A stretch of 64,000 bases of DNA from an uncultured delta proteobacterium (lineage in GTDB: Bacteria > Desulfobacterota > Desulfobacteria > Desulfobacterales > SG8-13). Every line of letters starts with the position of its first letter. Position 1 is the stretch's first letter. Positions 27,001 to 36,000 of this stretch are shown piece after piece. The DNA is taken from NCBI GenBank assembly GCA_963848135.1, contig CAWKCK010000017.1, positions 995,507 to 1,059,506 of the forward strand, given 5' to 3'. The position numbers are program-made.

Positions 27001-30000
27001 TAGAAAAGATTTGCTTCAGGGTACGGAAGGCAAAACTTATTAAATGATGAAATTTTATATTTTTGTTATTTTGCAATATTTGAATTGATCAAACCTATCA
27101 AATCGCAGAATGTTGGTGATTGGCAAATCATAGCTTCATCTGCGATGCAATTCCTGGCGGTTGGTTTACTGGCAAGAAAACATTAGCCGGATACAACTCA
27201 CAGTACTGATATGATATCACTACCCTCACGGAATTCCTCCCGACCACAATATGCTGCAGTACCCTGAATCAAACCTCATTCAAGCTATTGGCAAGCAGCA
27301 CAATAACCAATATTGTCGCTCCGAATATACCTTTTGACTCAGGATTTATACTCCTTTTTATCTAAACCGTGTTTGATTGCCAGCCTGCTAAATTGCCTTG
27401 TTGTGATTTTGGCTTCTTTGGCTGAGGTTTTGATTTTTCCATTGTGTTTTTTCAACAGTTTGGCAAGGTATGTACGTTCAAATTCATCGATGGCAATTTG
27501 TCTGGCCTCTGAGAGAGGCAGATCCTTTGCGCAATCAATCACCTCCATGCATAGCGAGCCAATGACCAATGTCTCTGGAAAACTCTCTTGTTTAAGTGTG
27601 TCGCCAGATCCAAGAATACAAGCCCGTTCCAATACGTTCTCCAGTTCCCTTACATTTCCGGGCCAACTATAAGATTGCAGCGCCTCAAAAAGTCCATGTT
27701 GCAGCCTGTCAAAATTTTTTCCATATTTCTTATTCAACTTTCCTAAACATCGATTGATCAAATGGGGTAGGTCTTCCAAGCGCTTTCTCAGTGGAGGTAG
27801 TTCTATCGGAAATACATTCAATCGGTAGTACAGGTCATTTCGGAAATTGCCTGACGCCACCAATTGTTGCAAATCAATGTTGGTTGCGGCGATGATCCGG
27901 GTGTTGGTTTGTAGTTGTTCCGTGCCCCCAATGCGGTCGAAGGTACCATCCTGCAATACGTGTAACAATTTGACTTGCATGGCCGGACTGATTGTCCCAA
28001 TTTCGTCGAGGAAAAGCGTACCGTTATGTGCCGTCTCGAATTTACCTATTTTTCTGCGTTCAGCACCGGTAAAAGCTCCCTTTTCATGGCCAAATAATTC
28101 GCTTTCTACAAGCGTTTCAGGAATGGCACCGCAATGGACCGAGACAAATGGTCCTTCCGATCGATGGCTGTGTCGGTGAATCAACTTTGCCATCAATCCT
28201 TTGCCGGTTCCTGTTTCACCTAAAAGCAGGACCGTGGCTATGGTAGGGGCAACACTGCGAACTTGCCGCAAAATGTATAACATATTAAGATTATTTGTAT
28301 GGACGATGTCCAGCCATTCCGATTTCCAGAATTTATCCCGCAAATATTCTAATTCCAGTTTATTAGACAGCCTTTGTCGGACAGCCTCAAGAACCAAATC
28401 GATCTCATCCCCAACGATTGGGTATATGAGATGATCGTCGGCTCCCTGCCTAACGGCTTTAATAGCTCTCCTGACCATATTTTTTGGGGATAGTACAACC
28501 AACTGCACCTGTGGATTGAGACTTCTGAAATGATTGGTGATTTTTTTAAAAAAGTCTGAAAAATTTTCACTTTTCAGGGTGACATCGAGAAAGACTATAT
28601 CAAAGGGGTTGTCAGGAGGATCGACAGCGGTAGAAGGATCAGGAGCAATGCGCACGTTAGCCGTTTCACTGACCTTGGTTTTAATTAGTTCACAGACATC
28701 GACGTCATTGCAGAAAATCAGAACATCTTTCATTTTTTAAACCGTATTATTGATTCACATGGATATTTTTGCAGCGTTGAGTATTAAACTATTAATCTCC
28801 ATTACTTAAGTCCAAGTACCTCAAAATTAATGATTTATCAATAAATTCATTTGGAAAATGAGAAGGATGATTTAACGAGGAAGGAAGTATTTGCTAAGGA
28901 TATATTTTATCTGCATTGCTTATCGAATCTGAACAATCGAATCGAAAACCTTTAACATAAATAATTATCCCATTTGTTGTATTTTCAATTATACCATCTA
29001 CAATAACCTTCTTATGAACAATTTGTCTCAATCTTATACCCATAAGATCATCGGCGATCCGATACCTCCTTTCATCATATCCAGCTATTTCCACCGCAGA
29101 TACTTCGCCATTTTTCCCCCAGTCAGCAGCAATGACAATGCCTTTTAAAGTGATTGGAGTTTGTTTTTCCATCAAGTCACACCAATTGGTTTGGTAAAAG
29201 GATTACACCCCATAAAACCCAACCTTTCAGCAAACATCATGCCCGATTCAAACCTATGCAGCTTGATTTGTCATTTATTTGTAACCGTTTTGCCAGAAGA
29301 AGGATTCTTAAGGATCGGGGAGGGGGTGTTTGAGGATACCATCGTCAGTCCAGAAATTACCCGCGACCCCGTTTAACCGAAATGCGGCGAGAGAGCGTCA
29401 GCTAAAGTCGCTAACCATTCGGTCAGGATCAATCGATTAATATCATCATAGAATGAAATCTGAATTGGGTGGGTATAATTACAAAACTCGATTTGAGAAC
29501 CAATTTCAGCAACCCGTAAACGGACATTTCGTGTCAAAATGCAAAACCGAAATCGGACATCTCATATCGCATTTTTCGTTGAAATGGTGCCCCTTAAAGA
29601 CAACCGAAGATAATTAGAAACGCATTTTATTCAAAATATCGCTGCAAAGGAATAAAATTTAGAAAATATCCTAAAATTCTAAATACTTATAGGGCAACCA
29701 ATTAATAGCATCGATTTTGGCTCGTTGTTTGCTAACTTCTGCTCAATAAACGCCGGGCAATACAATGAACCTGAACGGCAAAGTATTGATCGGACGAGAC
29801 GGCAAACTTCTCAAATTTATGGACATCATTCCATGGCGAACAACGGCACCTATACCCGAAGCGAGACCGCTACCGGCAAACCTTTATTCGGCAAACTGGA
29901 TCGTCGGCTTCAAATTGGACTGTTAACGGCCTTCTTCATCCCAATGGCGGTGTTGTCCGCCTATTTCCATTTTCAGTTTCAACACACCTTAACCGCCATC

Positions 30001-33000: not shown

Positions 33001-36000
33001 GATCCTGCTGGTTTTCCTTTGGAGCTTCTATTCTGATAGTTTTGGTATGGGGGGTCCAGTCCTGCTCTGTCTGGTCTTGATGAACATCCTGGGAATTCTA
33101 CGCTGGAAAGATATCAACAACATTCATTGGGATGTGGTAGCTCTTTATGCCGCCGCCAGCGCAATGGGCTACGGGTTAGCGACCACGGGTGCTGCTTTAT
33201 GGTTAGCCTCCGGCTTTCTTGCCGTGATGCCGGACTTTTTAACTTCTGGTATAGGATTAGGAATCTCCACCAGTTTGTTAACCGGCATTCTGACCAATTT
33301 CATGAGCGACGGCGCAACCGTGGCAGTCGTCGGGCCCATAACCGTACCTATGGCAACCCTGTCGGGGACTTCGCCAATACTCGTGGGCCTGGCCACGGCG
33401 TTTGCCTCTTCCTTTGCACATGTATTGATCATCGGCACACCCAACAACGCTATCGTGTTCAGCCTTGCCAAGGACCCGGAGACCGGCGAACAATTGTTAA
33501 CCATGAAAGATTTTTTCGTGCACGGCCTGGCGGTTCTTGTCCTAAGCCTGCTCATATTGTGGGTGTGGACTTTTTTTGGATACTGGAAATGGATGGGCTT
33601 TAGTTAAAATCGGTCAGATTGACGGTGGCAACGCACAGAATACCTATCACTTTTAAACTGTTACTTATTAGGAGGTTTCAATGAACCCGGACAAGATAAA
33701 CTTGATGATTGTTGACGATGAAGAAGATTTCCTGAATGCGATTCGCCGCAGTTTGGAAATTAGGGATTTTCATGTCATCACAGCCAACAGGGGTGAAAAA
33801 GCCCTTGAAATCGCCAAATCTAACCCAGTGGATATAGCCATTGTAGACCTGAAAATGCCCGGAATGAATGGCCTGGAAACTCTGGAAGCCTTAAAAAAGG
33901 CTCATCCATGGATGGAAATCATCATATTGACCGGCCACGGCACCATAGATTCGGCCGTAGAAGCCACGCAAAGTGGTGCTTACTCTTATTTGCAAAAACC
34001 CTGTGAGTTAGATACTTTGATGCAAATGTTAATCAAAGCTTATAAGAAACGTGTCATGAATAAGCAGCAGTTAGCAAAAAAAAAGATGGACGAGCTTCTC
34101 AAAATTTCTCAAGGTCGCTCCGCTCGTGAAATACTTTCGCGGCTTAGAGAAATCGATCGAAAGGGGTAATCGAGGATAAATATCCCGATATACTGGTGAC
34201 CGGAACCAAGGGACAGTCGAATTCAGTGGATACCCTTATTGAGGATCGTAAACCCAATAGATGCTCCGACGCAGTCCAACTTTTGTAATTAGTATCCGGA
34301 AAGACCGGATAAAAGAATGGCTCAGCTTGAAAACGTTACTAAGCATTTGAATTACGATGACAGGAAATTTTTTTACCTGTAATCCTGAACCAGCTGATAT
34401 CCCGGTCAAGGTGAAAAAGCACATACAAACTGATGAGTGAGATTCCTTCATTAACATACTATGTTCGATTGCGACGTGCATGGGAATTCTGTTGCCCGAA
34501 TGTTTATCACATGGTGTTAGAGGCTGGTAAATCATAGATTCTCAAGGCAAGTTGTGAACTCAGATTCTCTTTTATAGGCATAGTGGTTGGCAGATCAACA
34601 AGCATGTTGATCTTGGAAAAATACATCTTAAAGAATATAAAGCTGGACTATACTTCACGTTTTATAAAACGCGTGATACCCTGCTGATTCATAAAAATAG
34701 AAAAATGGCCAACCACAACATAAGATGGTTGGCCTATATTATTATGATAAGGTCGATGTATCGTGGGAAAAACTGACATGGTGAAATTCGAGTTTGCTGC
34801 TATGATATTTGAGCTATCATCTGGTCGATTCGTTTGAGATAGCCAGAACGTATCGTTTAAGATGGTGTGATTTCCTATAGTTGATTTATGGCAAGCTGTT
34901 CTGAGTATTGACCTCTCCAATAATATCCATCGGAAACTGCCCGACACCATATCTGCCCCCTTCGGGCAGATATGGTTTTGTATTGGCGATTTTATGAATA
35001 TTTAAATCCTTATTGACGCTTCTTTACGACCGTTGATCCTTTGATTCACACCTTTGTAAAGTCGCACGATCATTGGTGATCAATGCCTGATGTCAGCAAT
35101 TGTACCTGCATCTGTTTGCCAAATTCACACCAGTCGTTTATATTTGTGAAACGTTTTCATCCACAATTTTGGGAACACCCTATCAGTAAAGGGAAAATAT
35201 ATTATGAACCCGCAGGATTGGTTAACCGGCTTTATAGCCAACAAGTTGTTGAGCACAACGATTTTGATTGTCGCCGTTCTGATGATCCGAAAATATGTCG
35301 TTCATTGGATTAAGGGCAAAGAGACGTTTCTTCCGACATTCAAACGGCAGTGGATCGTGAGTGTCCGCAATATAACCATCTTTCTGATATTCGGAATAAT
35401 GGTTGTGGTATGGCTGGAGCAGTTGCGTACCATTGCCGCCTCCATTGTAGTCATTGCCGCAGCAATCGTCATTGCTACAAAAGAGTTTTTGCTGAATGTG
35501 GTTGGTTTTTTTTATCGCACAACGGCCAAGTTCGTGAGCGTCGGCGACCGCATTGAAGTGGATGGCATTCGGGGAGACGTGATTGACCAGAGTTTAATGG
35601 GCATCACGCTGCTGGAGATCGGCCCCGGAGATAAGACCCATCAATACACCGGACTTTCTATTTTCTTGCCTAATAGCCTGTTTCTCTCTGAGACCGTAAA
35701 AAATGAGACGTTTTTATGGAGTGATTAAGTCTTCCATTTGATGACTATTTCGATCAAGGCTGACGAGCAATGGTCAAAAGCTGAGGATGCCTTTCTGCAA
35801 GCCGCAAGGGATGTCAGCGCCCCTTACCTTGATAAAGCGCGGCAGGTTATGAAGACACAGGCACTGCAGCAAAACCTCGAGGAACCGAGTGTCGAACCTC
35901 GCGTACAGATCCAGATCGCCGACCCTGAGAAATACCATCTGGTCTTACGGGTACCTGTTCCGGCGCGCAAACGAGCCCGACTGGAGCAGGATATAACTCG

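What a model noticed while it worked through the whole genome (the two positions that open the first line are those of the whole stretch)
29833..34169. Response regulator whose output is a DASS/SLC13 anion transporter (REC-transporter fusion) with its own histidine kinase [...]
g04428 (C17:1027047-1029113, 688 aa) joins an N-terminal CheY-like receiver domain (15-124; DD, phospho-acceptor Asp in VVILDQKMPGMDG) through a ~110-residue linker to a full DASS/SLC13 divalent-anion:Na+ symporter body (240-686). Its start overlaps the end of a histidine kinase gene (g04427), and a single-domain receiver (g04429) follows. This is a two-component system whose output is a membrane transporter. A second locus (C5:323256-329914) has a kinase, two receivers, a DASS transporter (g02537), a hybrid kinase and another receiver as separate genes, which is the unfused form.
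Evidence so far: - pfam.tsv: Response_reg 15-124 (E 2e-25), Na_sulph_symp 240-686 (E 5e-39), CitMHS; gene order. - find_homologous_proteins with residues 1-260: 529 protein clusters at E<=1e-20. All 120 listed carry PF00072+PF00939+PF03600, nearly all are 686-690 aa, and they are named only 'SLC13 family permease' or 'anion permease' (Desulfosarcinaceae, Desulfatitalea, Desulfobacterales MAGs). - search_genomes over 80 other Desulfobacterota: a full-length match in 1 genome (63% identity) and a partial one in 1, so the distribution is patchy. - Paper searches found no REC-DASS transporter.
(Added by a program. Inside this text positions count along the whole contig: contig position 995,507 is position 1 of the stretch shown here. 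"Call 12" and the like, gene names such as g00115 and contig names such as C1 are that model's own, and its searches are not shown. The text may have been shortened before it was handed on; [...] marks where a part breaks off. The agent that wrote the report below was given it as the finding of a first reader that could run no searches.)

Follow-up and report, generated by a model that had tools for sequence, protein, structure and literature searches.

The report
Receiver domain fused to anion transporter
A sulfate-reducing bacterium encodes a membrane anion carrier with a phosphorylation "receiver" switch built onto its inner end, next to its own sensor kinase, so the signal probably switches uptake directly instead of switching genes, which nobody has tested.

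Summary
Window 31541-33607 (+) is one intact 688-aa gene. It joins a receiver domain with all catalytic residues (15-124) to a DASS/SLC13-type permease (240-686). A Cache-type histidine kinase overlaps its start by 14 nt, and a 162-aa stand-alone receiver follows.

This three-gene order recurs in related loci: kinase upstream in 51 of 58, receiver downstream in 47 of 50. Neither receiver protein has a DNA-binding domain.

Receiver fusions to DASS permeases arose at least twice, and one sister permease carries a Usp domain instead.

- The closest unfused paralogue is on contig 3, not contig 5.
- The surrounding kinase/receiver/CBS/DASS cluster is already in print as the candidate sulfate-uptake cluster of Desulfobacteraceae (PMC11887813). 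The text of that paper that I could search does not mention the fusion.
- This scan has reported the same family on at least eight other genomes.

My best reading is phosphorylation-gated anion uptake, probably of sulfate. This is inferred, not shown.

The parts
29833..31554 (+). Sensor histidine kinase (573 aa from the ATG at 29833; the frame is open from TTG 29725). It has two hydrophobic segments flanking a Cache-like periplasmic domain, then HisKA and HATPase_c. Its stop overlaps the next gene's start by 14 nt.
   Evidence: HATPase_c E 2.4e-26, HisKA E 1.3e-9, dCache_1 30.5 bits (under the cut-off of 45). It is 29% identical over its full length to the C5 kinase, whose dCache_1 scores 75.5 bits. 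An orthologue lies directly upstream in 51 of 58 related loci.
31541..33607 (+). REC-DASS fusion gene (688 aa plus stop).
31583..31912 (+). Receiver (REC) domain, residues 15-124. The acidic pair D19/D20, the phospho-acceptor D63 (codon 31727-31729), T91 and K113-P114 are invariant. Y110 is nearly invariant.
   Evidence: Pfam E 6e-25. Invariant columns in 32 sequences. Mean identity to relatives is 74%, close to the 77% of the permease.
31913..32020 (+). Conserved linker, residues 125-160, with invariant E139-I140-P141 and N157, R159-P160-G161.
   Evidence: Mean identity 51%.
32021..32074 (+). First transmembrane helix (residues 161-178). Unfused clade members share it, so I read it as the canonical first helix of the DASS family rather than an added anchor.
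   Evidence: Alignment A2: the 'RPG...P.P' segment aligns in fused and unfused relatives. In P0171, P0165, P0197 and P0261 the Pfam match starts at model positions 2-7 and covers this helix. Hydropathy peak at 151-183.
32075..32275 (+). Insertion of about 67 residues between the first and second helices (residues 179-245). It is hydrophilic, with invariant K190, E196, G200, Y204, M207 and Y217. It is probably periplasmic. Its function is unknown.
   Evidence: The side of the membrane is inferred from the receiver being cytoplasmic; it was not tested.
32276..33604 (+). DASS permease body (residues 246-688). The two Ser-Asn-Thr motifs of VcINDY align to invariant S352-E353-(H354) and S589-D590-G591. 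The conserved stretch 'GGPGSPAAGGRN' (398-409) and the nearly invariant 'GTPNNAI' (632-638) are also present.
   Evidence: phmmer against PDB: VcINDY 4f35 E 1.2e-22, query 246-643, alignment printed. Invariant columns. NCBIfam TIGR00785 scores 156.5 bits, under the cut-off of 198.6.
33681..34169 (+). Stand-alone receiver (162 aa) with a conserved C-terminal tail of about 45 residues. D12/D13, D56, T84 and K106 are invariant.
   Evidence: An orthologue (45-69% identity) lies directly downstream in 47 of 50 related loci. It is 32% identical to the fused receiver.
29718..29733 (+). Sigma-54-like -24/-12 element TGGC-N7-TTGCT, 100 nt upstream of the kinase ATG. Weak evidence; context only.
   Evidence: 3 matches in the window against 1.3 expected. 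A similar element sits upstream of the kinase in only 4 of 46 related loci.
27339..28733 (-). Divergently transcribed sigma-54 activator (AAA+) with a weak N-terminal receiver-like region. It may be a transcriptional arm of the system. Context only.
   Evidence: Sigma54_activat E 4.8e-68; Response_reg 24.2 bits, under the cut-off of 30.2. It does not hold a fixed position in related loci.

Best explanation
This is a three-gene two-component module: Cache-type sensor kinase, receiver-fused DASS permease, free receiver. Its main output is the transporter itself.

Shown:
- One intact, strongly conserved gene joins a catalytically complete receiver to the cytoplasmic N-terminus of a DASS-family permease.
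- It is translationally coupled to a membrane kinase.
- No DNA-binding response regulator is encoded in the operon.

Inferred mechanism:
- The kinase senses an external small anion through its periplasmic Cache domain. The most likely anion is sulfate.
- It passes phosphate to D63 of the fused receiver and to D56 of the free receiver.
- Phosphorylation changes the receiver's conformation or pairing under the dimeric permease.
- Through the conserved 35-residue linker to the first scaffold helix, or by docking on and off the moving transport domain, this speeds up or blocks the elevator cycle.
- Uptake is thereby adjusted within seconds, without new gene expression.
- The free receiver most likely competes for phosphate, acting as a sink or timer, or relays the signal elsewhere.

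The probable physiological role is to tune dissimilatory sulfate uptake to the external sulfate level.
For: Fusion and completeness:
- Pfam domains.
- D19, D20, D63, T91 and K113 are invariant in 32 sequences of 67-83% identity.
- The receiver is as conserved as the permease, 74% against 77%.

Kinase coupling:
- 14-nt overlap with the kinase gene.
- The kinase is adjacent in 51 of 58 related loci and the free receiver in 47 of 50.

No transcriptional output in the operon: both receiver proteins lack any other Pfam domain except the permease.

A regulatory 'socket' at the permease N-terminus:
- 7 of 26 scanned representatives are REC+DASS and one sister (47% identical permease) is Usp+DASS.
- The domain tree puts receiver fusions in two separate, well supported places, so there were at least 2 origins. 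One fused protein is sister (SH-aLRT 98) to the unfused C5 permease of this genome.

Recurrent linkage in this genome: all four full-length DASS genes sit beside small cytoplasmic regulator proteins.
- C17: receiver fused to the permease.
- C3: CBS protein, REC-CBS protein and stand-alone receivers.
- C5: stand-alone receivers and a CBS protein.
- C17b: CBS protein.

Sulfate link:
- The genome has dsrA at 611 bits against a cut-off of 393, with a dsrB-like gene next to it.
- 3 of 5 carrier MAGs labelled as other phyla also have dsrA over the cut-off.
- The published cluster model names these DASS proteins as sulfate transporters (PMC11887813, section 14 read).
- Group Cii DASS genes of D. autotrophicum are induced at low sulfate (PMC5840216, passages).

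In situ: contigs of a sediment metatranscriptome library, about 96% identical, bridge both gene junctions. This is a weak hint only, because DNA can be present in such libraries.
Against: - No experiment or model here shows phosphotransfer, or any effect of phosphorylation on transport.
The position of the receiver relative to the transport domain is therefore unknown.
- The substrate is not established. The permease scores under NCBIfam's DASS cut-off. Both Asn residues of the VcINDY Na+/substrate motifs are replaced by acidic residues (E353, D590). Cation coupling and substrate may therefore differ from characterised DASS proteins.
- One related genome has a 63%-identical permease without receiver or first helix and without a kinase upstream. 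The permease core can therefore exist without this control.
- The published model for the cluster is transcriptional.
- A sigma-54 activator lies next door.
- The fusion is missing from most relatives: 18 of 19 family genomes, with that query.
Confidence: 0.55

Rival explanations
1. The fused protein is mainly a signalling component rather than a regulated carrier. Its receiver would act as a membrane-tethered phosphate sink or co-sensor that reports transport flux back to the kinase, in the manner of a 'trigger transporter'. The real output would be the free receiver acting on an unknown target, or the neighbouring sigma-54 activator.
For: - A second receiver with a conserved C-terminal tail and all catalytic residues is always present.
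- Related clusters hold several receivers and receiver-kinase hybrids, which suggests branched phosphorelays.
- A sigma-54 activator and a sigma-54-like promoter element lie upstream.
- The published model is transcriptional.
Against: - The permease body is the most conserved part (77%) and keeps the conserved hairpin-region motifs that align to VcINDY's binding motifs, as expected for an active carrier.
- The sigma-54 element is conserved in only 4 of 46 loci, and the activator is not syntenic.
- Independent fusions of receiver or Usp domains to the same permease end are easier to explain as control of the permease.
Confidence: 0.22
2. Phosphorylation controls assembly, localisation or turnover of the carrier (for example dimer formation or proteolysis) rather than gating the transport cycle.
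For: - Receiver domains commonly act by phosphorylation-dependent dimerisation, and DASS carriers work as dimers (general knowledge, recalled; not tested here).
- The linker has an invariant Glu-Ile-Pro break (E139-I140-P141). This does not look like a rigid signalling helix.
Against: Nothing here speaks specifically for it. No protease or adaptor gene is conserved in the operon.
Confidence: 0.13
3. The receiver is a structural or pseudo-receiver domain that is not phosphorylated. The neighbouring kinase would serve only the free receiver.
For: Pseudo-receivers are common in bacteria (PMC12632262, abstract seen in the search listing).
Against: - All residues needed for phosphotransfer are invariant across the family.
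- The gene overlaps the kinase gene.
Confidence: 0.05
4. The fusion is an annotation or assembly artefact, with two genes read as one.
For: None found.
Against: - It is one open frame without stops.
- All 120 listed homologues have the same architecture at nearly the same length, from many independent assemblies.
- Contigs from DNA and RNA libraries cover the junction region.
Confidence: 0.01

Closest known systems
DASS-type 'sulfate transporter' gene cluster with two-component systems and CBS proteins in Desulfosarcina variabilis 3be13 and other sulfate reducers (PMC11887813; section 14 and the Fig. 5 legend read)
   Same: - Cache-type kinases, several receivers, CBS proteins and DASS permeases are clustered in Desulfobacterales.
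- This genome has three such loci (C17, C3, C5) plus a CBS-DASS pair.
- In a related MAG the fused and unfused modules lie in tandem.
   Different: - The paper's text does not mention a receiver fused to a permease: 'fused', 'fusion', 'receiver' and 'REC domain' give 0 hits.
- It calls the regulators WalR-type and proposes control of transporter formation. In this operon neither receiver has a DNA-binding domain.
- Orthology to Dvar_38230 or Dvar_38430 could not be tested here. Its supplementary figures were not available as text.
VcINDY and other bacterial DASS/SLC13 carriers (TC 2.A.47, PF00939, PDB 4f35)
   Same: Homologous over residues 246-643 (E 1.2e-22), with collinear hairpin regions. 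The Pfam family cut-off is passed.
   Different: - It has an N-terminal receiver plus linker.
- It has a 67-residue insertion after the first helix.
- SNT motifs are replaced by S-E-H and S-D-G.
- It scores under NCBIfam's DASS cut-off.
- The fold was not tested, because no model was obtained.
Carriers and channels with fused cytoplasmic regulatory domains: ClC-CBS, MgtE-CBS, SulP-STAS (general knowledge, recalled), and the Usp-DASS sister found here
   Same: A small cytoplasmic sensor domain is attached to a transporter. ClC-CBS and MgtE-CBS genes occur in this genome. A Usp-DASS relative has a 47% identical permease.
   Different: Those domains bind ligands such as nucleotides or ions. Here the domain is the phospho-acceptor of a kinase-driven relay.
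Response regulators with non-transcriptional outputs: CheY, CheB, PleD, RssB (general knowledge, recalled)
   Same: A receiver controls a non-DNA output through phosphorylation.
   Different: The output here is an integral membrane secondary transporter in the same polypeptide. I found no studied example (paper searches).
Transporter-like sensor kinases and trigger transporters: CbrA with an SLC5-like domain, and DctA with DcuS (recalled; CbrAB review seen in search listings only)
   Same: Both link a two-component system physically to a secondary transporter.
   Different: The logic is reversed. There the transporter feeds information into the kinase. Here the receiver, the end of the relay, sits on the transporter.
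REC-HAMP-EamA/DMT fusion reported earlier in this scan (e1-4129688)
   Same: A receiver is fused to a secondary carrier next to a kinase.
   Different: It involves another carrier superfamily and a HAMP linker. I did not examine it here.

Membership tests
Response regulator receiver domain (PF00072) | Sequence match to the family profile over the whole domain | tested here: met
   88 bits against a cut-off of 30.2, residues 15-124, profile positions 1-110 of 111. Spo0F, NtrC and CheY receivers are hit in PDB at E 1e-17 to 1e-8.
Response regulator receiver domain (PF00072) | Catalytic residues: acidic pair, phospho-acceptor Asp, Thr/Ser, Lys (their roles are recalled from general knowledge) | tested here: met
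   D19, D20, D63, T91 and K113 are invariant, and Y110 is at least 90% conserved, in 32 sequences.
Response regulator receiver domain (PF00072) | Phosphorylated by a cognate histidine kinase | not testable with these tools
   Context only: the kinase gene overlaps by 14 nt and is adjacent in 51 of 58 loci.
DASS / SLC13 carriers (PF00939, TC 2.A.47) | Pfam family cut-off | tested here: met
   132.8 bits against 27, residues 240-686, profile positions 22-470 of 472.
DASS / SLC13 carriers (PF00939, TC 2.A.47) | NCBIfam TIGR00785 'dass' subfamily cut-off | tested here: not met
   156.5 bits against 198.6.
DASS / SLC13 carriers (PF00939, TC 2.A.47) | Two Ser-Asn-Thr motifs at the hairpin tips that bind Na+ and substrate in VcINDY (role recalled) | tested here: not met
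   They align to S352-E353-H354 and S589-D590-G591. No member of the wider clade in alignment A2 has SNT at the first motif.
DASS / SLC13 carriers (PF00939, TC 2.A.47) | Elevator-type fold, dimer | not tested
DASS / SLC13 carriers (PF00939, TC 2.A.47) | Transports a di- or trivalent anion with Na+ or H+ | not testable with these tools
   Sulfate is suggested only by literature on related clusters and by the dsr genes.
Published Desulfobacteraceae DASS/TCS/CBS sulfate-uptake cluster (PMC11887813) | DASS permease next to a Cache-type sensor kinase and response regulators | tested here: met
Published Desulfobacteraceae DASS/TCS/CBS sulfate-uptake cluster (PMC11887813) | CBS-domain proteins in the cluster | tested here: inconclusive
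   There is none in the window operon. They are present at the C3, C5 and C17b DASS loci of the same genome.
Published Desulfobacteraceae DASS/TCS/CBS sulfate-uptake cluster (PMC11887813) | Orthology to the named transporters Dvar_38230 and Dvar_38430 | not testable with these tools
   Those sequences were not at hand, and the supplement text held had no hits.
Classical transcriptional two-component system | Response regulator with a DNA-binding output domain | tested here: not met
   Neither the 688-aa nor the 162-aa receiver protein has one.

The most novel reading that the evidence does not exclude
Aspartyl phosphorylation by a two-component kinase directly gates a secondary transporter. 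This would be a class of response-regulator output, 'transport', that has not been studied. It has evolved at least twice on DASS permeases. In marine sulfate reducers it would set the rate, or the affinity mode, of sulfate uptake within seconds of a change in external sulfate. In the unfused modules, free receivers and CBS proteins would do the same job by binding the permease.
Probability: 0.5. Interest if true: 0.8.

Novelty: new variant of a known kind. Interest (0 to 1): 0.62.

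Why it matters
Two-component systems are usually thought of as gene switches. A receiver built into a carrier would be a direct, fast link from an external signal to membrane transport.

The carriers concerned are the candidate sulfate importers of Desulfobacterales. 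These bacteria drive much of the carbon oxidation in marine sediments (as stated in PMC11887813). Control of sulfate uptake at the level of activity would therefore bear on sulfate-reduction rates and, through uptake reversibility, on sulfur-isotope signals.

The fused protein is also a convenient handle. It shows which receiver acts on which permease, and so makes the unfused kinase/receiver/CBS/DASS clusters testable.

A phospho-gated transporter module could be useful in engineering.

The architecture is visible in public annotation and the cluster is in print. The open point is the mechanism, not the existence.

Tried and rejected
- Structure prediction of the full protein with alignment A1 was polled about 30 times, then reported as interrupted. 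There is therefore no model, no fold search and no view of receiver docking.
- Complex prediction of the fusion with the free receiver (A1 + A3) was never accepted.
- Kinase sensor domain against PDB sequences gave only spurious AnkX hits at E 0.008-0.04.
- Rfam on 28000-36000 gave no match at E<=0.1.
- Promoter and terminator scan was not above shuffles. One 13-bp hairpin at 34946-34976 lies about 780 nt past the operon.
- Sigma-54 promoter idea: the first pattern had the wrong spacing and gave 0 hits. The corrected pattern gives 3 hits against 1.3 expected. The element is conserved in only 4 of 46 loci. I kept it as a side note only.
- Pairing the fused receiver with a particular free receiver of the unfused loci failed. 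The best match is the C5 receiver just before the permease (39%, 90.9 bits), but five others score 77-90 bits.
- Simple hydropathy and Lys/Arg counts did not settle the topology. The argument rests on alignment A2 instead.
- Census papers gave nothing useful. Two Galperin reviews, asked for by PMC ids recalled from memory that may be wrong, were not held. The archaeal census and the 2005 census mention no receiver-transporter fusion. The pseudo-receiver paper has no mention of transport.
- The annotation 'Response regulator modulated sodium/sulfate symporter' of Desulfobacula toluolica, quoted in earlier scan notes, could not be verified. The phrase is in no held paper. The ten clusters looked up carry only 'SLC13 family permease' or 'sodium-dependent dicarboxylate transporter' names.
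- The motif scan for named isolates found 43 genome hits, all MAGs.
- Taxon labels of carrier MAGs from other phyla (Planctomycetales, Acidobacteriota and others) were not used as evidence of gene transfer, because binning errors cannot be excluded.
- The 'careful' tree search did not finish. The quick IQ-TREE result is reported.

Full report
**What is there**

The finding's coordinates are right. The window holds three same-strand genes:
- 29725 (TTG; ATG at 29833) to 31554
- 31541 to 33607
- 33681 to 34169

Pfam reads the three genes as follows:
- The first is a histidine kinase: HisKA E 1.3e-9, HATPase_c E 2.4e-26, and a weak dCache_1 match of 30.5 bits, under the cut-off of 45.
- The second has Response_reg at 15-124 (E 6e-25), Na_sulph_symp at 240-686 (E 2.4e-38) and CitMHS.
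- The third is a receiver only (E 1.6e-30).

The kinase stop overlaps the fusion gene's start by 14 nt.

The parenthetical offset in the finding is wrong. The window is C17:995507-1059506, so 995,506 must be subtracted, not 1,024,537.

**Is the fusion real and functional?**

A search of 5.8 billion clusters gave 1940 hits at E<=1e-5 among the 8000 candidates scored. The best 120 all carry the three Pfam families, are 672-704 aa long and are 67-99% identical.

In an alignment of 32 of them:
- The receiver's acidic pair (D19, D20), phospho-acceptor (D63), Thr (T91) and Lys (K113, followed by P114) are invariant. The switch Tyr (Y110) is nearly so.
- The linker has invariant E139-I140-P141 and N157, R159-P160-G161.

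The receiver is as conserved as the permease. Mean identity to the window protein is 74% for the receiver and 77% for the permease, against 44-51% for linker, first helix and loop.

The ESM Atlas lists three clusters with this architecture, of 107, 59 and 92 members. This is a family under selection, not an artefact.

**The permease**

By sequence it is homologous to VcINDY: E 1.2e-22, residues 246-643. It passes Pfam's cut-off but not NCBIfam's DASS cut-off, at 156.5 against 198.6 bits.

In the printed alignment, the two Ser-Asn-Thr motifs of VcINDY correspond to S352-E353-H354 and S589-D590-G591. S352, E353, S589, D590 and G591 are invariant in the family and H354 is nearly so. The coupling ion and substrate may therefore differ from the characterised dicarboxylate carriers.

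The hydrophobic segment at 161-178 is not an extra anchor:
- It aligns with the first helix of unfused relatives.
- In several relatives the Pfam match begins at model positions 2-7 and covers it.

The receiver is therefore attached to the normal cytoplasmic N-terminus. Residues 179-245 are an insertion after helix 1, with conserved K190, E196, G200, Y204, M207 and Y217. Its function is unknown.

**Context elsewhere**

I examined 61 related loci from GTDB species genomes with at least 45% identity.
- An orthologous kinase (37-64% identity) lies directly upstream in 51 of 58 loci with enough flank.
- The free receiver (45-69% identity) lies directly downstream in 47 of 50.
- The 7 kinase misses are: three loci where the kinase ends about 580-625 nt upstream, beyond my 400-nt limit (L017, L019, L021); three where other receiver hits displaced my anchor (L012, L030, L046); and one where the match is only an N-terminal piece (13-280) and the kinase ends about 600 nt upstream (L062).
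- In 15 of 38 loci with at least 5 kb downstream, a second DASS without a receiver (23-35% identity) is present.

In one such locus (L047) the order is as follows:
1. receiver
2. receiver-Cache-kinase
3. REC-DASS
4. receiver
5. Cache-kinase
6. receiver
7. receiver
8. DASS
9. receiver-kinase

The second half is colinear with this genome's C5 locus. The free receiver family also keeps all catalytic residues and a conserved C-terminal tail.

**This genome's other DASS loci**

- C3 holds a DASS that is 35% identical (E 7e-82). It is flanked by a CBS protein, a REC-CBS protein, a ClC-CBS channel, three receivers and a Cache kinase that appears split into two ORFs.
- C5 holds a Cache kinase (29% identical to the window's over its full length), two receivers, a DASS (25% identical), a receiver-kinase, a receiver and a CBS protein.
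- A fourth DASS (C17b) has a CBS protein directly upstream.

All four full-length DASS genes are therefore tied to small cytoplasmic regulator domains.

**Evolution of the fusion**

Among 26 representatives of 50%-identity clusters:
- 7 are REC+DASS (P0124, P0126, P0128, P0129, P0141, P0143, P0171).
- 1 is Usp+DASS (P0131, permease 47% identical).
- 18 have a DASS with no recognised N-terminal domain.

I built a quick maximum-likelihood tree of 55 permease domains. The careful search did not finish.
- Six of the seven REC-fused rows in the tree fall in one clade (SH-aLRT 100), together with the Usp fusion and the C3 paralogue. These seven rows include the window protein; P0141 was left out of the tree as too short.
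- P0171 falls in the other main clade, as sister (SH-aLRT 98) to the C5 permease.
- Supported branches force at least two origins.

Independent fusions of a receiver, and of another sensor domain, to the same end of the same carrier family are classic evidence that the domain acts on the carrier.

One Zixibacteria-labelled genome has a 63%-identical permease that lacks the receiver and the first helix. A free receiver follows it, and there is no kinase upstream.

**Distribution**

I searched with residues 1-310.
- The fusion was found in 1 of 19 other genomes of the family, and that copy has internal stops.
- It was found in 24 of 300 sampled genomes of the order. In 22 of these the match runs from the receiver into the permease (only 7 candidates per genome were scored).

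Near-identical DNA occurs in sediment metagenomes of 11 studies. Contigs of one metatranscriptome library, about 96% identical, bridge the kinase/fusion and fusion/receiver junctions. This is only a hint of expression, because DNA can be present in such libraries and a contig is not a transcript.

**Substrate and physiology**

- The genome has dsrA at 611 bits against a cut-off of 393, with a dsrB-like gene beside it.
- Of five carrier MAGs labelled as other phyla, three have dsrA over the cut-off. The other two have only short fragments at contig ends.
- PMC11887813 (section 14 read) describes a 30.5-kb cluster in Desulfosarcina variabilis. It contains abundant, constitutive DASS 'sulfate transporters', many two-component systems and CBS proteins, and is conserved in 26 sulfate reducers. 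The paper proposes that the Cache kinases sense sulfate.
- PMC5840216 (passages) reports a DASS group Cii with lengths from 474 to 691 aa. It includes D. autotrophicum genes induced below 100 uM sulfate and a D. toluolica protein found in membrane fractions.
- PMC8117226 (passages) summarises older physiology: sulfate limitation induces a faster, electrogenic, highly accumulating uptake mode.

Sulfate is therefore the most likely substrate, at about even odds. It is not shown.

**Mechanism**

I commit to direct gating. The kinase phosphorylates D63. The receiver's change is passed through the conserved linker to scaffold helix 1, or acts by docking on the transport domain, and alters the elevator cycle. 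The free receiver competes for phosphate or relays it. I put this at 0.55.

The main rival, at 0.22, is that the fused protein is a sink or co-sensor and the real output lies elsewhere. A sigma-54 activator and a -24/-12-like element lie upstream, but neither is conserved. Control of assembly or turnover (0.13), a non-phosphorylated pseudo-receiver (0.05) and an artefact (0.01) are less likely.

**What is known**

No paper I could search describes a receiver-DASS fusion or any receiver-gated secondary carrier.
- The 2025 cluster paper has no occurrence of 'fused', 'fusion', 'receiver' or 'REC domain'.
- The 2018 paper has none of 'response regulator', 'histidine kinase', 'receiver' or 'two-component'.
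- Two reviews of response-regulator outputs were not held under the PMC ids I recalled, so rare listings there cannot be excluded.
- The 2025 paper's supplementary figures were not readable.

Earlier notes of this scan report the same family on at least eight other genomes. They quote a database name, 'Response regulator modulated sodium/sulfate symporter', for the D. toluolica protein. I could not verify that name.

**Verdict**

This is a real, conserved and already annotated architecture inside a published gene cluster. Its defining idea, a two-component relay ending on a transporter, is untested. I rate it a new variant of a known kind, with interest 0.62.

Noticed in passing
L007 (own genome, C3:1088000-1106000), 4259-13158, minus strand: A paralogous cluster. 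It holds a CBS protein, a DASS (35% identical to the fusion's permease), a REC-CBS protein (328 aa), a ClC chloride channel with a CBS domain, two receivers, a Cache domain ORF (262 aa) immediately followed by a HisKA-HATPase ORF (310 aa), and another receiver. The two kinase ORFs overlap and look like one kinase split in two. A REC-CBS protein beside two anion transport proteins is itself unusual.
   Followed up: partly
window 29718-29733 (+) and 27339-28733 (-): A sigma-54-type -24/-12 element lies 100 nt upstream of the kinase ATG. A sigma-54 activator with a sub-threshold receiver-like N-terminus is transcribed divergently. The element is conserved in only 4 of 46 related loci.
   Followed up: yes
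P0131 (public protein, 692 aa): A sister permease (47% identical) carries a universal stress protein (Usp) domain where the window protein has its receiver. The permease N-terminus therefore accepts different sensor modules.
   Followed up: partly
L054 6010-7848 (Zixibacteria-labelled MAG chromosome): A 444-aa permease, 63% identical to residues 241-687, lacks the receiver, the first helix and the loop. A free receiver follows it, and no kinase lies upstream. It is either a natural truncated form or a rearrangement.
   Followed up: partly
L047 3879-5924: In a related MAG the orthologous kinase ORF carries an N-terminal receiver domain (REC-dCache-HisKA-HATPase, 681 aa), and another free receiver precedes it. 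The relay around the fused carrier can therefore be more branched than in the window.
   Followed up: no
window 35204-37439 (+): A short MscS-like ORF (174 aa, beta-domain match only) and an MgtE Mg2+ channel with CBS domains lie about 1-2 kb downstream of the operon. A 68%-identical MgtE lies at a similar distance in locus L009.
   Followed up: no
window 32075-32275 (residues 179-245 of the fusion): A conserved hydrophilic insertion between helix 1 and helix 2, with invariant K190, E196, G200, Y204, M207 and Y217. It is shared in shorter form by unfused clade members. It is probably periplasmic and its function is unknown.
   Followed up: partly
window 23613-26968: PdxT/PdxS (SNO and SOR_SNZ families) lie next to a GntR-aminotransferase (MocR-type) regulator. 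This is an ordinary pyridoxal-phosphate synthesis and regulation pair.
   Followed up: no
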